From Escherichia coli (lineage in GTDB: Bacteria; Pseudomonadota; Gammaproteobacteria; Enterobacterales; Enterobacteriaceae): 64,000 nt of DNA. The notes under the pieces were generated by a model, which did no database searches, had not been told where the DNA came from, and saw nothing but the letters and a program-made list of their open reading frames with translations. Position 1 is the stretch's first letter. Each line of letters begins with the position of its first letter. The translations under genes and the position numbers were made by a program. Below are positions 4,335 through 9,039 of this stretch, in pieces. The DNA is taken from the NCBI RefSeq assembly GCF_041886205.1, contig NZ_CP169029.1. The stretch is one strand, 5' to 3'.

Positions 4335-4478
4335 TATTTCCCTACTGGCGTATAACGCTCACCAATTGTTATACGCCATCCTCACTGAAAATATAGATTA
4401 AATAATATCTGAAAAATAAAATCACTCCTGTAGAACAGTATTATAATCACCGAAAAATATTATTTAACAGGAGTGTTA

Positions 4479-5405
4479 ATGGCTACTTTAATGGAAAAAG
4501 ATGCACTTTTAAATGGCACCAGTCAGTGCATCGCGTTTTTATCAAATATCGTTGATAATTGCTCAGTTTCGTCACGTCAGGATTCAGGCGATGATCTCAC
4601 ACGATTAGTCAGCTATCGCGATTATCTTTACTCTACCCCCGCTGAACTTGTTGATTTTACACAGGGAAAGAGTCACCTTCAGCAGATTAGAACTCAATAT
4701 CAGCATGAATTCAACAATACTACGCATTCAGAAAATAAAGCATCTTTTGATTCTATTTGGCAGCGTCTGACAAATCATGAAGTCACACCGCAACAGCATC
4801 CCATTGGTTTTGTTTTAGGTGGGCAACCCGGAGCAGGTAAATCATCTCTGATTGAATTAGCCAAAAGAGAGACAAAAGATAATATAATGATTATTAACGG
4901 TGATGATTTTCGATTTCTACACCCTGATTTTAATTATATCTACCAAAATTATGGGGATGATTTTGTTACCCATACAGCGAAATTTTCCGGCGAAACGGTC
5001 GAACGTGCAATTGAGAGAGCGATAGTCAGTAAACTCAACATTGTTGTCGAAGGAACATTTCGTAATGCCGCTACGCCGTTACAAACATTAAAAAAACTCA
5101 AAGATGCAGGCTACCAAACAGAAGTCATGATAAAAACAACCTCAGCGGCATTAAGCTGGGAAAGCACCAATGAACGGTATAATAAGGACAAAGAGGCGGG
5201 AAATATTGCCCGAAAAGTGGATAAAAACCACCATGATATCGTCACCGGTTTGCTGGCAGAAAATGCCCGCAAGGTGTTTGCTTCGAACCTGTCAGATAAG
5301 TTTGCGGTGTATTCGCGTGAGAAGATGATATTTAGTTCACAAGCGGCAACGAATGACGATATTGCAACGCTTATACAGAATGAAATCAGCGGGAATACAC
5401 AATAA
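4479..5405 (+). CDS. Zeta-toxin-family P-loop kinase with ~100-aa N-terminal extension (EzeT-like single-chain toxin-antitoxin candidate)
   Basis: ATG at 4479 preceded by AGGAG (4468-4472); the ORF track starts 2 codons earlier at a GTG (4473). Walker A GGQPGAGKS at 4818-4844 and GDDFR at 4899-4913, as in zeta/PezT UNAG kinases; gene is visibly AT-rich compared with its neighbours. Confidence 0.8.
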   Translation: MATLMEKDALLNGTSQCIAFLSNIVDNCSVSSRQDSGDDLTRLVSYRDYLYSTPAELVDFTQGKSHLQQIRTQYQHEFNNTTHSENKASFDSIWQRLTNHEVTPQQHPIGFVLGGQPGAGKSSLIELAKRETKDNIMIINGDDFRFLHPDFNYIYQNYGDDFVTHTAKFSGETVERAIERAIVSKLNIVVEGTFRNAATPLQTLKKLKDAGYQTEVMIKTTSAALSWESTNERYNKDKEAGNIARKVDKNHHDIVTGLLAENARKVFASNLSDKFAVYSREKMIFSSQAATNDDIATLIQNEISGNTQ

Positions 5406-5440
5406 TAATAAGAGCTGATGGCGTGAAATAACGCCGGGCA

Positions 5441-6241
5441 TCACGCCCGGCGCATTACCGTCTGGTACATTAAGCTATCCAGTTCCTTAACGTCCCCTTC
5501 TCTGCTATCCGGTAACAGCGGTGGAATTTCCCCACGCGCCAGTTCCGCACGAATAAACGCATGTAACAATGGACGGCGCGGACCATATTCCGCTTCTCCT
5601 GCGCGCTGTTTACGTCCCAGTAATTCGTCTATTTCTGCACGTAACGGCGCATCAAGTTCACTTCCCGCCAGTAGCTCAGCAAAGCGCATTGGCGGCACGC
5701 CTTTTCCCGCTTCGACCCAGCGCACGGCCAGCAGCGGACGCAGCACGTAAAAGTATTTTTTCAGTCGAACTTCATCGCCCTGCAAATATCCGCGGAAGTT
5801 TTTCTGCGCCATCGAATAGTAATGCCAGCGCGCACGCAGCGGAGAAAACCACATTGGGACCATTGCCTTAAGCGCCGTTATCGTTTCTTCATCTTGTTGA
5901 TAGACCACCGGAGAATCCAGCCATTCTATCAGCGTCGGGTTCGCGCCTTTCAATAATCCCAGCGCCTTACGCCACTCCCAACCGGAAACATCTAACTCGT
6001 CGTCGATGGGCAGCTCGATAACATCGCGCGGCGGCTCCACCCGCAGATACCATTCCAGCGGGTGAACATACAAAAACCGTACATCGTAGTCGCTGTCGGG
6101 CGAGGCAAACCCCCAGCCGCGGCTCCCGGATTCACAGGCATACAGCACTTTCACGCCGTAGCGCCGTTCTATTTCTTTTAACTGCTGCGATACCCGTTCG
6201 CGCATCGCAGCACTGACTCCATTTAATGGCATGTTACTCAC
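5441..6241 (-). CDS. Pol-beta-superfamily nucleotidyltransferase-fold protein of unknown specificity
   Basis: 266-aa ORF from a GTG at 6241 that overlaps the upstream SPFH stop; alternative in-frame ATG at 6232. Contains GS-x10-DYDV (coding 6083-6127), the classic hG[GS]...DhDh NTase signature, plus downstream acidic residues (IELPIDDELD). Confidence 0.75.
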   Translation of the reverse strand: MSNMPLNGVSAAMRERVSQQLKEIERRYGVKVLYACESGSRGWGFASPDSDYDVRFLYVHPLEWYLRVEPPRDVIELPIDDELDVSGWEWRKALGLLKGANPTLIEWLDSPVVYQQDEETITALKAMVPMWFSPLRARWHYYSMAQKNFRGYLQGDEVRLKKYFYVLRPLLAVRWVEAGKGVPPMRFAELLAGSELDAPLRAEIDELLGRKQRAGEAEYGPRRPLLHAFIRAELARGEIPPLLPDSREGDVKELDSLMYQTVMRRA

Positions 6242-7365
6242 CCTTTGATATTAACCAACCCATGCAGAACCTGATCCAGACCGCCAAATACAGAGATGTT
6301 ATCGATCCGCTCAGCCACTCTCTCCAGCGTTTCTAGCTCTTTTAAACGCAACGCTACCGGATTGTTCTCCATGACTTTGGCGGTGTTCAGTAACGAGCGC
6401 GTCGCTGCCGTTTCTTCACGTCGGCGAATCACATTCGCCTGCGCAGATTTCTCCGCCTCAACCAGCTGCGCAAGGATATTTTTCATATCGCCAGGCAGGA
6501 CGATATCTTTCACCCCTAATGAAGCAATCTCCATACCAAATGGCAACATGCGCGATTTCACCTGTTCGCTGACAACGTCATCAATGACCTGTTTATCTTC
6601 CAGCAGTTCATCCAGCGTACGAGTACCTACCGCTTCACGCAGGGCAAATTGCAATTCCCGATACAAATGATCAATCGGCTTCGTTAACTGACTAAATGCT
6701 AATAACACGTCGCTGTAGCGCCAGTTAGCCGCGAGGTTAATCCGCAGATTGACCTTATCTTTCGTTAAGATTTCTTGCCCGCTGACTTCCAGTACCTGCA
6801 AGCGGGTGTCAACCACTTCAGTTTCAACCAGATGGTTAATTTTCCAGTACGCGGTAAGCCCCGGCGGTAACAGCGCCTGCGTTTCACCATCGATTTTCAG
6901 CACGCCTACATGCCAGGCCGGAACCTGCACCGTCAGTATCGCATCGCGGCCTTTAACAACTCCTTTGCGCCGTGGCTGTAATACCGCATTCATCACCTCC
7001 GTTTGTACCGGGACTTGCTGCGTATTCATCCGCACCAGCGTCAAATCATCCTCTACACGCCAGTACAAACGACGCGTTGATGGCAGCAGGATCTCCAGCA
7101 AAATACCGTCCATATACAACGCCCCGGCTTCAGTCTCCGACAAGTCTGCCACCAGGCAATATTTCTCCACCCAATCAGGCTGAAAGCGGCGCAAATAGTC
7201 CGCCAGCACGTCGGGAACTTCGCTACCATCCAGCGTAATCAGCAACACTTCCGGGGTATTAAACCAGGGTAAAAAATGCTCGCCTGCATGTAGCACTTTG
7301 TAGTAATCGCCGTTTCTGGAGAGTAATGCCAGCTGATCTTTTCTTACGCTTATTTTTTTAATCAT
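6238..7365 (-). CDS. SPFH/band-7 (stomatin/prohibitin-like) domain protein with no predicted membrane anchor and a ~135-aa N-terminal domain of unknown function
   Basis: 375-aa ORF, ATG at 7363-7365 with AGGAA 7 nt upstream; SPFH hallmarks (PPGLTAYWK...TKDKVNLRINLAANWRY...GMEIASLGVKDIVLPGDMK) and C-terminal coiled-coil-like AEKSAQANVIRRREE...; no hydrophobic stretch of TM length seen by eye. Confidence 0.8.
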   Translation of the reverse strand: MIKKISVRKDQLALLSRNGDYYKVLHAGEHFLPWFNTPEVLLITLDGSEVPDVLADYLRRFQPDWVEKYCLVADLSETEAGALYMDGILLEILLPSTRRLYWRVEDDLTLVRMNTQQVPVQTEVMNAVLQPRRKGVVKGRDAILTVQVPAWHVGVLKIDGETQALLPPGLTAYWKINHLVETEVVDTRLQVLEVSGQEILTKDKVNLRINLAANWRYSDVLLAFSQLTKPIDHLYRELQFALREAVGTRTLDELLEDKQVIDDVVSEQVKSRMLPFGMEIASLGVKDIVLPGDMKNILAQLVEAEKSAQANVIRRREETAATRSLLNTAKVMENNPVALRLKELETLERVAERIDNISVFGGLDQVLHGLVNIKG

Positions 7366-7893: not shown

Positions 7894-8166
7894 ATGGCAC
7901 TCCCCCGTATTACCCAAAAAGAGATGACTGAACGCGAGCAGCGTGAACTTAAAACACTGCTGGATCGGGCGCGGATTGCGCATGGTCGCGTACTGACCAA
8001 CTCCGAAACCAACAGCATTAAGAAAGAGTACATCGATAAATTAATGGTTGAGCGTGAGGCTGAAGCAAAAAAAGCCCGCCAATTGAAGAAAAAGCAGGCT
8101 TATAAACCGGATCCTGAAGCGTCATTTAGCTGGTCAGCAAATACGTCGACGCGCGGCAGGCGCTGA
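7894..8166 (+). CDS. yjbD: YjbD (DUF3811 family small protein)
   Basis: 90-aa ORF MALPRITQKEMTEREQRELK..., convergent and abutting rluF as in E. coli. Confidence 0.85.
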   Translation: MALPRITQKEMTEREQRELKTLLDRARIAHGRVLTNSETNSIKKEYIDKLMVEREAEAKKARQLKKKQAYKPDPEASFSWSANTSTRGRR

Positions 8167-9039
8167 TTAGCGCCCCTTCTTTTTTCGCCCCGGCGAGGTA
8201 AAACGCTTACCGTTGGACGCCGGGCGACCGCCTTTTTCCGCCGTTTTTTCCATCTTAACGACTGGGCGTTTGATGCCCGCCGTTTTCGGTTTGGCCTTCG
8301 CTTTAGGTTTTGCCTCGGAAGAGGAATTTTCGATGAGTTTAAAGAGGTCGATTAACTCATCGTCAGTTAAATCGCGCCACTCACCCAGCGGAATGCCGCT
8401 TAAACTGACGTTCATAATGCGCGTACGTTCCAGCTTTTTCACTTCGTAACCAAAGTGCTCGCACATGCGACGGATCTGACGGTTCAGCCCCTGCACCAGG
8501 GTAATGCGGAAGACAAACGGCGCTTCTTTTTTGACTTTGCACTTTTTCGTCACCGTCCCGAGGATCGGCACTCCCGCCCCCATACCACGAATAAATTCAT
8601 CGGTAATCGGTTTATCGACCGTCACCAGATACTCTTTCTCATGATCGTTACCCGCACGGAGGATCTTATTCACCAGATCGCCGTGATTGGTGAGGAAAAT
8701 CAGCCCCTGGGAGTCTTTATCCAGGCGGCCAATCGGGAACACGCGTTTGCTGTGGTTAACGAAATCGACAATGTTATCGCGCTCGCCATCTTCGGTGGTG
8801 CTGACAATACCGACGGGCTTGTTCAGGGCGATAAGTACCAAATCTTCGGCTTCCCGAGGCTCAATCAACTGACCGTTTACTTTCACAACGTCGCCGGGTT
8901 TCACCTGATCGCCAATGGTGGCTCGCTTGCCATTAAGGAACACATTGCCTTGCTCGATATAGCGATCCGCTTCGCGGCGTGAGCAAATTCCGCTTTCGCT
9001 GATGTATTTATTTAAACGGACTGATGAGTCGGGCAGCAT
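8167..9039 (-). CDS. rluF: 23S rRNA pseudouridine synthase F
   Basis: 290-aa ORF with S4 domain N-terminus ([26 protein letters not shown]) and RsuA-type catalytic core, Lys/Ala/Pro-rich basic C-terminal tail. Confidence 0.93.

What the first reader, a model, noticed from the sequence alone, without database searches (positions are those of the whole stretch)
5406..5451. Convergent zeta and NTase genes end 35 bp apart around a GC hairpin with the NTase stop codon in its loop
GCCGGGC-ATCAC-GCCCGGC (5433-5451) forms a 7-bp GC stem; the NTase TGA (5441-5443 on the minus strand) sits in the loop. There is no flanking U-tract, so it is not a canonical intrinsic terminator, but it may act as a bidirectional RNA-stability element or pause site that insulates the two convergent transcription units.
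Basis: seen in the sequence. Interest (0 to 1): 0.25.

Follow-up and report, generated by a model that had tools for sequence, protein, structure and literature searches.

The report
Shared terminator hairpin between convergent genes
The GC hairpin between the zeta-toxin gene (ezeT) and the nucleotidyltransferase gene is real and conserved, but it is most likely an ordinary transcription-terminator hairpin of the nucleotidyltransferase operon that also caps the toxin mRNA.

Summary
CGCCGGGC-ATCAC-GCCCGGCG (5432-5452) is an 8-bp stem, one pair longer than reported, and 9 bp with a G·U on the minus-strand RNA. ezeT ends at 5405. The NTase TGA (5441-5443, minus strand) sits in the loop, and the gap between the genes is 35 nt. 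The hairpin is the 7th strongest 30-nt fold in the window and is single-copy.

The claim of no U-tract is wrong for the NTase strand, where the stem is followed by UUAUUUCAC. The GUUAUUU part of that tail is invariant in every relative examined. The same hairpin in E. coli Ec-U10 and in Superficieibacter, whose tails have one more U after the 9-pair stem, is called terminator-like by the consensus scan.

The hairpin travels with the slipin-NTase operon, not with ezeT. Where a 16-kb phage-tail cluster replaces ezeT, homology resumes about 11-12 nt from the stem. The stem is invariant across three loop alleles. One cryptic-clade Escherichia has a compensatory G-C to A-U change.

Most likely reading: an intrinsic terminator of the slipin-NTase operon that overlaps the last NTase codons. 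On the ezeT strand it gives a U-less 3' hairpin that could act as a pause or exonuclease barrier. This is ordinary, and no 3'-end data exist to confirm it.

The parts
5432..5452 (.). Perfect palindromic hairpin. Stem 5432-5439 pairs with 5445-5452 (8 bp, all G-C). Loop is 5440-5444. On minus-strand RNA a G·U pair (5453/5431) extends the stem to 9 bp.
   Evidence: folds of -18.4 and -19.8 kcal/mol; 7th strongest 30-nt fold in the window; unique in the window.
5422..5431 (-). U-rich tail that follows the stem on the NTase-sense RNA: UUAUUUCACG, read from 5431 down to 5422. On the + strand it is the A-rich tract upstream of the stem.
   Evidence: GUUAUUU is invariant in all E. coli alleles, in Escherichia sp. 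MOD1-EC7003 and in Superficieibacter. Alleles ending UAUUUUAC or UAUUUAUG are called terminator-like. The window allele was not called.
5441..5443 (-). NTase stop codon (TGA) in positions 2-4 of the loop. The stem arm that is 5' on the minus strand (5445-5452) encodes the last residues, Arg-Arg-Ala.
   Evidence: Other alleles have TAA at the same position (loop AUAAA).
5441..6241 (-). RlaP-family nucleotidyltransferase gene. The longest ORF runs from GTG at 6241. RefSeq annotation in other strains gives a 792-nt CDS, which corresponds to an ATG at 6232 (inferred from the length).
   Evidence: (PF10127, E = 3.4e-95).
6238..7365 (-). Slipin / SPFH (Band 7) gene, directly upstream in the same orientation. 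Its stop is adjacent to the NTase start, so an operon is presumed.
   Evidence: (PF01145, E = 8.9e-27). The pairing with the NTase gene is conserved in Citrobacter, Klebsiella, Phytobacter, Kosakonia, Hafnia and Erwinia.
4479..5405 (+). ezeT, a single-chain zeta toxin with a cis antitoxin domain. The annotated start is the ATG at 4479. The stop TAA at 5403-5405 is followed in frame by TAA TAA (to 5411). The stop lies 26 nt before the hairpin.
   Evidence: The window protein is 97% identical to WP_000212693.1, which is annotated at the same locus in O26:H11 11368. PMC10532202 names that accession as EzeT.

Best explanation
**Proposed function.** The hairpin plus its downstream GUUAUUU tract is the Rho-independent terminator of the slipin-NTase (RlaP) operon on the minus strand. 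It sits so close to the gene that its 5' arm encodes the last three NTase residues and the stop codon lies in the loop. Because the stem is a perfect G+C palindrome, the convergent ezeT mRNA forms the same hairpin 26 nt after its own stop, but without a U-tract.

**On the ezeT strand.** There the hairpin is expected to act as a pause, a weak or collision-assisted terminator, and a barrier to 3'-to-5' exonucleases. It would not act as an efficient stand-alone terminator.

**Shown here.**
- The structure and its statistical strength.
- Conservation of the stem and the U-rich tail.
- One compensatory change.
- Co-inheritance with the NTase module.

**Inferred.**
- That transcripts actually end there.
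- Which strand is served.
- That a ribosome stopping in the loop lowers termination efficiency on the NTase strand.
For: 1. **Strength.** The hairpin is strong and statistically unusual.
2. **Tail.** The NTase-sense tail is UUAUUUCAC. A d'Aubenton-Carafa-type score, with the formula recalled from memory, is +25 to +34 on the minus strand and 0 on the plus strand.
3. **Consensus scan.** The same hairpin in E. coli Ec-U10 and in Superficieibacter, with tails UAUUUUAC and UAUUUAUG after the 9-pair stem, is reported as terminator-like on the NTase strand.
4. **Module membership.** About 90 E. coli genomes, and Superficieibacter, carry a 16-kb phage-tail cluster where ezeT lies in the window. In them homology to the window resumes about 11-12 nt from the stem, so hairpin and tail stay with the NTase gene.
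5. **Conservation.** The hairpin region matches in 1515 of 5426 complete E. coli genomes. In every allele sequenced here, and in the 29 E. coli-type metagenome hits, the stem is invariant while the loop has three alleles: GUGAU, AUAAA and GUGAA. Superficieibacter is 73% identical to E. coli over 3.1 kb, yet hairpin plus tail is 27/30 identical, which is in the top 3% of 30-nt windows.
6. **Compensatory change.** Escherichia sp. MOD1-EC7003 changes two NTase residues (Arg to His, Ala to Val) but keeps the stem. It does so through one G-C to A-U double change and one C-G to U·G change. That U·G pair and the outer G·U pair both pair only in the NTase-sense RNA.
7. **Orthologous operons.** In other genera the NTase gene ends 0-12 nt before a different strong hairpin. 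In Klebsiella this is a canonical A-tract / hairpin / U-tract shared with convergent lysC.
Against: - **No transcript data.** No 3'-end data exist for any strain carrying this island, as far as found here.
- **Failed scan.** The window allele fails the consensus terminator scan. After the 9-pair stem only 4 of 8 tail bases are U.
- **Stop codon too close.** In vivo, a stop codon 5 nt before terminator tR2 cut termination from about 90% to under 10% through ribosome occlusion (PMC4824070). A stop inside the loop should therefore weaken termination whenever translation is tightly coupled to transcription.
- **Atypical distance.** E. coli termination points mostly lie 25-75 nt after the stop codon (PMC12207403). 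Here the expected point is roughly 15-19 nt after the NTase stop (my estimate), but about 55 nt after the ezeT stop. Position therefore fits ezeT better than NTase.
- **Weak covariation.** Support rests on one sequence; 70 of 500 shuffles reach the observed score.
- **Dispensable.** A natural IS1414 insertion in the loop (strain JNEC-KY172) shows the hairpin is not essential.
Confidence: 0.55

Rival explanations
1. The hairpin is not a stand-alone terminator on either strand. It is a pause or roadblock element of the 'bidirectional terminator' type found between convergent genes. The nascent hairpin traps RNA polymerase from either side, head-on and trailing collisions release it, and the hairpin then protects both mRNA 3' ends from exonucleases. 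This is essentially the first reader's idea.
For: - The genes are convergent, with a single strong palindrome between them.
- The ezeT-sense tail is U-poor.
- The class is described for hundreds of E. coli genes. It is said not to resemble intrinsic terminators, and the hairpin is needed for well-defined collision sites (bioRxiv 10.1101/2022.10.23.513370).
- The stop in the loop should weaken classical termination on the NTase strand.
Against: - The conserved GUUAUUU tail on the NTase strand is not needed by this model.
- Two orthologous alleles do look like intrinsic terminators.
- ezeT is reported to have a weak promoter (PMC4803016), and the collision model works best for highly expressed pairs.
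- The model is not testable in silico.
Confidence: 0.27
2. The palindrome has no function of its own. It is a chance G+C palindrome, or a by-product of the Arg-Arg-Ala C-terminal codons.
For: - Within E. coli the flanking coding sequence is about as conserved as the stem, so invariance there proves little.
- Covariation is statistically weak.
- Strain JNEC-KY172 tolerates an IS element in the loop.
Against: - The hairpin is in the top 0.02% of local folds, against 0.01 copies expected.
- The arm that is 3' on the minus strand is non-coding, yet it is invariant and changed in a compensatory way when the coding arm changed.
- The residues themselves are not conserved: His/Val in MOD1-EC7003, and absent from other genera.
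- The hairpin is a local identity peak against Superficieibacter.
Confidence: 0.08
3. The palindrome is a DNA-level element: a recombination or attachment site, or a REP-like repeat, that marks the edge of the variable slot between lysC and the NTase gene.
For: - The junction between the ezeT-type and tail-cluster-type segments lies about 11-12 nt from the stem.
- An IS256-family element inserted exactly in the loop in one strain.
Against: - There is one copy per genome, so it is not a REP/BIME family.
- No integrase is annotated in the replacing segment.
- No significant direct repeats flank ezeT. The best candidate, 15 nt at 80%, is within the noise of the same list.
- The other edge of the slot is simply the lysC stop codon, as expected if anything between two selected gene ends is free to vary.
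Confidence: 0.04

Closest known systems
Rho-independent (intrinsic) terminators of E. coli, including those that overlap the end of the upstream or the convergent gene
   Same: - It has a G+C-rich 8-9 bp stem and a 5-nt loop.
- A U-rich tract follows directly on the NTase strand, at the 3' end of an operon.
- The A-rich tract on the other side is the mirror image of that tail.
- The same window holds another case: the yjbD/rluF hairpin at 8159-8174 has both stop codons in its loop and a T-run after it.
   Different: - The U-tract is interrupted and short (UUAUUUC).
- The stop codon lies inside the loop, which is much closer than the usual 25-75 nt between stop codon and termination point.
- Termination has not been measured.
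Bidirectional terminator elements between convergent E. coli genes (Ju et al. 2019; Wang et al., bioRxiv 10.1101/2022.10.23.513370)
   Same: A single hairpin-forming element lies between two convergent genes, and it lacks a proper U-tract on at least one strand. Its proposed roles are pausing and definition of both 3' ends.
   Different: Overlapping 3' ends have not been shown here. One strand does look like a classical terminator. ezeT is reported to be weakly transcribed, which is unfavourable for the collision mechanism.
Ribosome-occluded terminators and attenuator logic (Li et al. 2016, PMC4824070; pyrBI-type attenuation)
   Same: The stop codon lies within ribosome reach of the terminator hairpin, so a closely coupled ribosome should prevent hairpin folding.
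   Different: In attenuators the terminator precedes the regulated genes. Here it ends an operon, and the only thing downstream is antisense ezeT. No regulatory use has been shown.
REP/BIME palindromes
   Same: Both are G+C-rich extragenic palindromes found at gene 3' ends. Citrobacter orthologues of this operon appear to carry REP-like palindromes at this position (judged by eye).
   Different: This palindrome is single-copy in the window and in E. coli genomes, and its sequence is unrelated to the REP consensus.

Membership tests
Intrinsic (Rho-independent) terminator, NTase-sense strand | Stable G+C-rich stem-loop (about 5-14 bp stem, 3-8 nt loop) | tested here: met
   9-bp stem (8 G-C pairs plus one G·U) with a 5-nt loop; -19.8 kcal/mol, z = -3.45.
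Intrinsic (Rho-independent) terminator, NTase-sense strand | U-rich tract immediately 3' of the stem | tested here: inconclusive
   The tail is UUAUUUCAC. It has 5 of 8 U after the 8-bp stem but only 4 of 8 after the 9-bp stem, so the consensus scan did not call it. Orthologous alleles with one more U in that tail are called. The score recalled from memory is positive.
Intrinsic (Rho-independent) terminator, NTase-sense strand | Transcript 3' ends map 7-9 nt after the stem, and termination occurs with RNA polymerase alone | not testable with these tools
   No transcriptome data are available for island-carrying strains. K-12, the usual Term-seq strain, lacks the island.
Intrinsic (Rho-independent) terminator, ezeT-sense strand | U-rich tract immediately 3' of the stem | tested here: not met
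   The tail is CAUUACCGUCUGG, with 3 of the first 8 bases U. The score is 0, and the scan makes no call.
Bidirectional terminator between convergent genes (SEnd-seq class) | Hairpin-forming element located between the stop codons of a convergent pair | tested here: met
Bidirectional terminator between convergent genes (SEnd-seq class) | Overlapping, well-defined 3' ends on both strands that are independent of Rho | not testable with these tools
   This needs SEnd-seq or Term-seq with and without bicyclomycin.
REP/BIME repeats | Many dispersed copies per genome sharing a consensus | tested here: not met
   One copy in the window. Median of one place per E. coli genome.
Any Rfam RNA family | Score at or above the family gathering threshold | tested here: not met
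   The best hits are SorX at 19.6 bits (threshold 46.6) and Hrs12 at 19.7 bits (threshold 70). These are hairpin-only chance matches.
EzeT (single-chain zeta toxin-antitoxin), for the neighbouring + strand gene | Solitary zeta-kinase domain with an N-terminal extension of about 80-100 aa, located next to lysC in E. coli | tested here: met
   - The Zeta_toxin domain covers residues 103-284 of 310.
- No epsilon-type ORF lies upstream.
- The protein is 97% identical to WP_000212693.1 at the same locus.
- PMC10532202 cites that accession as EzeT and notes the lysC neighbourhood.

The most novel reading that the evidence does not exclude
The stop-in-loop arrangement makes the terminator translation-gated. 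When a ribosome follows RNA polymerase closely to the NTase stop codon, the hairpin cannot fold. The slipin-NTase transcript then reads through and becomes a long antisense RNA across ezeT. When translation lags, for example under stress or cold, transcription terminates and ezeT is relieved. Expression of the toxin would thereby be coupled to the translational state of the neighbouring operon. Stem, stop position and tail are conserved across Escherichia and Superficieibacter, but in Superficieibacter and in some E. coli the downstream partner is a phage-tail cluster rather than ezeT. That argues against a toxin-specific role.
Probability: 0.06. Interest if true: 0.5.

Novelty: new member of a known kind. 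Interest (0 to 1): 0.12.

Why it matters
It matters little beyond annotation. The result supplies a probable 3' boundary for two unannotated transcription units in an accessory island: ezeT, and the slipin-RlaP nucleotidyltransferase operon. About a quarter of complete E. coli genomes carry this island.

It is also a clean natural example of a terminator hairpin that has been absorbed into a coding sequence, with the stop codon in the loop. Natural alleles exist that could serve as ready-made controls:
- three loop variants;
- one variant with a compensatory stem change;
- one IS-disrupted hairpin.

These could be used to study how ribosome occlusion affects termination at convergent genes.

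Tried and rejected
- **Rfam at permissive E-value.** Only sub-threshold hairpin matches (SorX, Hrs12); rejected.
- **REP-like or repeated element.** Single copy; rejected.
- **Metagenome scan.** The pattern fixed the flanks and left 20 free bases. It gave 37 loci. The 29 true hits carry only the three known loop alleles and no new stem variant, so it added no covariation. The other 8 are unrelated chance matches.
- **Att-like repeats flanking ezeT.** The resemblance between 4366-4380 and 5417-5431 (15 nt, 80%) is no better than several other pairs in the same list; rejected as noise.
- **PADLOC scan of the three proteins.** No significant defence-system match.
- **My survey script of convergent junctions.** It used fixed window sizes that skip 21- and 23-nt hairpins and so missed the very hairpin under study. 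Its output is not used, apart from pointing to the REP-like palindrome between pepE and yjbB.
- **Rocker & Meinhart 2015.** The paper is not held, so their transcript mapping could not be checked.
- **Prophage attachment site.** I first suspected a P2-like prophage attachment site at the hairpin in Ec-U10. The full region shows a tail-only cluster with no annotated integrase that fills the whole lysC-NTase slot. This is segment replacement, not site-specific integration.

Full report
**1. The observation**

The + strand reads ...GGCGTGAAATAAC GCCGGGC ATCAC GCCCGGC GCATTACC.... The 7-bp stem reported at 5433-5451 is correct. It extends by one C-G pair to 5432-5452. On the minus-strand RNA a further G·U pair (5453/5431) brings it to 9 bp.

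The zeta-toxin ORF stops at 5403-5405 with TAA, followed in frame by two more TAA codons. The NTase ORF stops at 5441-5443 with TGA on the minus strand, in positions 2-4 of the 5-nt loop. The stops are 35 nt apart.

The hairpin is far stronger than chance:
- The 36-nt fold is -18.4 kcal/mol (z = -4.7) on the + strand and -19.8 kcal/mol (z = -3.45) on the minus strand.
- In a scan of every 30-nt window on both strands of the 64-kb window it is the 7th strongest locus, and only 0.02% of windows are as good.
- The pattern occurs once, against 0.01 expected.

**2. The genes and the locus**

Pfam identifies three genes:
- a Zeta_toxin kinase with an N-terminal extension of about 100 aa;
- an RlaP-family nucleotidyltransferase;
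- upstream of it on the same strand, an SPFH/slipin protein.

The window is E. coli: it is 100% identical to strain PT62, in the order pgi-lysC-[island]-yjbD-rluF-pepE-yjbB-metH. The three-gene island is present in about 1424 of 5426 complete E. coli genomes and absent from K-12.

The zeta gene is ezeT. The protein annotated at this locus in O26:H11 11368 is WP_000212693.1. It is 97% identical to the window protein. PMC10532202 gives that accession for the experimentally characterised single-chain toxin-antitoxin EzeT and notes its position next to lysC.

**3. Which gene owns the hairpin?**

Three lines point to the NTase operon.

(a) *Tail.* On NTase-sense RNA the stem is followed by UUAUUUCACG. 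On ezeT-sense RNA it is followed by CAUUACCG.

(b) *Co-inheritance.*
- In about 90 E. coli genomes (for example Ec-U10, E189 and EC17GD31) and in Superficieibacter, ezeT is absent. The whole space between the lysC stop and the NTase gene is filled by a 16-kb phage-tail gene cluster.
- Sequence homology with the window resumes about 11-12 nt from the stem, so hairpin plus U-rich tail is retained.
- On the other side, all three locus types (K-12, ezeT, tail cluster) diverge immediately after the lysC stop codon.
- The variable slot is therefore bounded by the lysC stop and by the NTase hairpin plus tail.

(c) *Strand-specific pairs.* The outer G·U pair, and the U·G pair that replaces the loop-closing C-G in Escherichia sp. 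MOD1-EC7003, are pairs only in the NTase-sense RNA. On the other strand they are A·C mismatches.

**4. Conservation**

- A 95-nt query around the hairpin finds 1515 genomes, with a median of one place per genome.
- All sequenced variants examined, and the 29 E. coli-type metagenome hits, keep the stem and GUUAUUU unchanged. The loop has three alleles: GUGAU, AUAAA and GUGAA. Each preserves Ala and a stop codon at the same place.
- The cryptic-clade genome MOD1-EC7003 changes two of the three residues encoded by the stem (Arg to His, Ala to Val). It keeps pairing through a G-C to A-U double change and a C-G to U·G change.
- This is a single lineage, and the formal covariation test is weak: 70 of 500 shuffles reach the observed score.
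- Against Superficieibacter (73% DNA identity over a colinear 3.1 kb), hairpin plus tail is 27/30 identical, in the top 3% of windows. The differences fall in the loop (2) and at one indel in the U-run of the tail.

**5. Orthologous operons**

In Citrobacter, Klebsiella, Phytobacter and Kosakonia the slipin-NTase pair lies directly convergent with lysC. The NTase protein there lacks the last 2-3 residues. Its stop codon is followed within 0-12 nt by a different strong hairpin:
- canonical A-tract / hairpin / U-tract terminators in Klebsiella and relatives;
- apparently REP-like palindromes in several Citrobacter.

A hairpin hard against the NTase stop is therefore the rule for this operon. Escherichia and Superficieibacter are the extreme case, where the reading frame runs into the stem.

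**6. Does it qualify as a terminator?**

- The consensus scan did not call the window allele on either strand. With the G·U pair counted, the tail UAUUUCAC has 4 rather than 5 U in 8.
- The same hairpin with tail UAUUUUAC (Ec-U10) or UAUUUAUG (Superficieibacter) is called on the NTase strand.
- A d'Aubenton-Carafa-type score, with the formula recalled from memory, is +25 to +34 for the NTase strand and 0 for the ezeT strand.

Two published observations temper this:
- A stop codon a few nucleotides before a terminator lets the ribosome block hairpin folding. Termination at tR2 fell from about 90% to under 10% when the stop was moved to 5 nt from it (PMC4824070).
- E. coli termination points mostly lie 25-75 nt after the stop (PMC12207403). 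By position the hairpin therefore suits ezeT (stop 26 nt upstream). By tail composition it suits the NTase operon.

**7. Interpretation**

Most likely (about 0.55) this is the intrinsic terminator of the slipin-NTase operon, probably of moderate and translation-sensitive efficiency. Its palindromic stem also gives ezeT mRNA a stable U-less 3' hairpin.

On the ezeT strand the plausible roles are:
- pausing;
- weak or collision-assisted termination, as described for bidirectional terminators between convergent E. coli genes (bioRxiv 10.1101/2022.10.23.513370);
- an end-point for exonucleolytic trimming after Rho-dependent termination in the untranslated antisense-NTase region. This last is inference from general knowledge.

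It is already a known kind of element, and its premise of no U-tract holds for one strand only.

**8. How ordinary is it?**

- The next convergent pair in the same window, yjbD/rluF, has both stop codons (TGA 8164-8166 and TAA 8167-8169) in the loop of GGCGC-TGATTA-GCGCC, followed by CCTTCTTTTTT.
- No Rfam family matches the hairpin.
- It is not a repeated element.
- Nothing supports a recombination-site role.
- An IS1414 copy sits in the loop in strain JNEC-KY172, with an 8-bp duplication GGGCGTGA, so the hairpin is dispensable.

**9. Verdict**

The element is a new, unannotated example of a well-known kind. Interest is low. The only mildly unusual aspect is the conserved stop-in-loop geometry. 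It predicts translation-dependent read-through into antisense ezeT, a speculative reading to which I give about 6%.

Noticed in passing
window 8159-8174: The convergent yjbD/rluF pair has no intergenic space. Both stop codons (TGA 8164-8166 on +, TAA 8167-8169 on -) lie in the loop of GGCGC-TGATTA-GCGCC, followed by CCTTCTTTTTT. In K-12 the two genes are 132 nt apart.
   Followed up: partly
L047 27372-43131 (E. coli Ec-U10); also L049, L051, L006, L012: A 16-kb phage-tail gene cluster replaces ezeT between lysC and the NTase hairpin in about 90 E. coli genomes. It encodes a Mor activator, holin, transglycosylase, sheath, tube, tape measure, baseplate and fibre, with no capsid or integrase annotated. 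It is colinear at about 73% identity in Superficieibacter. It may be a tailocin-like element.
   Followed up: partly
L050 2554-3870 (E. coli JNEC-KY172): IS1414 (IS256 family) is inserted in the loop of the hairpin with an 8-bp target duplication GGGCGTGA. The NTase stop is kept but the two stem arms are separated. This is a natural hairpin knock-out.
   Followed up: yes
window 4423-4475: In the ezeT leader, CACUCCUGU (4423-4431) can pair with ACAGGAGUG (4467-4475), which contains the Shine-Dalgarno sequence (-16.6 kcal/mol, z = -2.8). A TATAAT hexamer (4440-4445) sits in the loop, so the 5' arm may lie upstream of the transcription start and be irrelevant.
   Followed up: partly
window 6183-6212 (minus strand): A strong hairpin lies inside the 5' coding region of the NTase gene: UGCUGCGAUGCGCGAACGGGUAUCGCAGCA, -21.4 kcal/mol, z = -5.3. 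It starts about 30 nt after the GTG at 6241, and is the 5th strongest 30-nt fold locus in the window.
   Followed up: no
window 4346-4378: An 11-12 bp perfect hairpin (TGGCGTATAAC ... GTTATACGCCA, z = -6.9) lies 12 nt after the lysC stop. It is specific to the ezeT-type locus, since K-12 and Ec-U10 diverge right after the lysC stop. It has no U-tract.
   Followed up: partly
window 5403-5411; L005: ezeT ends in three in-frame stops, TAA TAA TAA. The cryptic-clade Escherichia sp. MOD1-EC7003 has GAA GAA TAA there, giving a protein two residues longer.
   Followed up: no
L001 3268-3965 (E. coli PT62): The strain otherwise identical to the window carries an IS1 copy between lysC and ezeT. The IS1 is absent from the window, and ezeT is annotated there with a later start.
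   Followed up: no
L004, L006: Two contigs filed under 'Collinsella sp.' and 'Bacillota bacterium' MAGs carry 97-98% identical E. coli slipin-NTase-ezeT or tail-cluster sequence. This is probably E. coli contamination of the bins.
   Followed up: no
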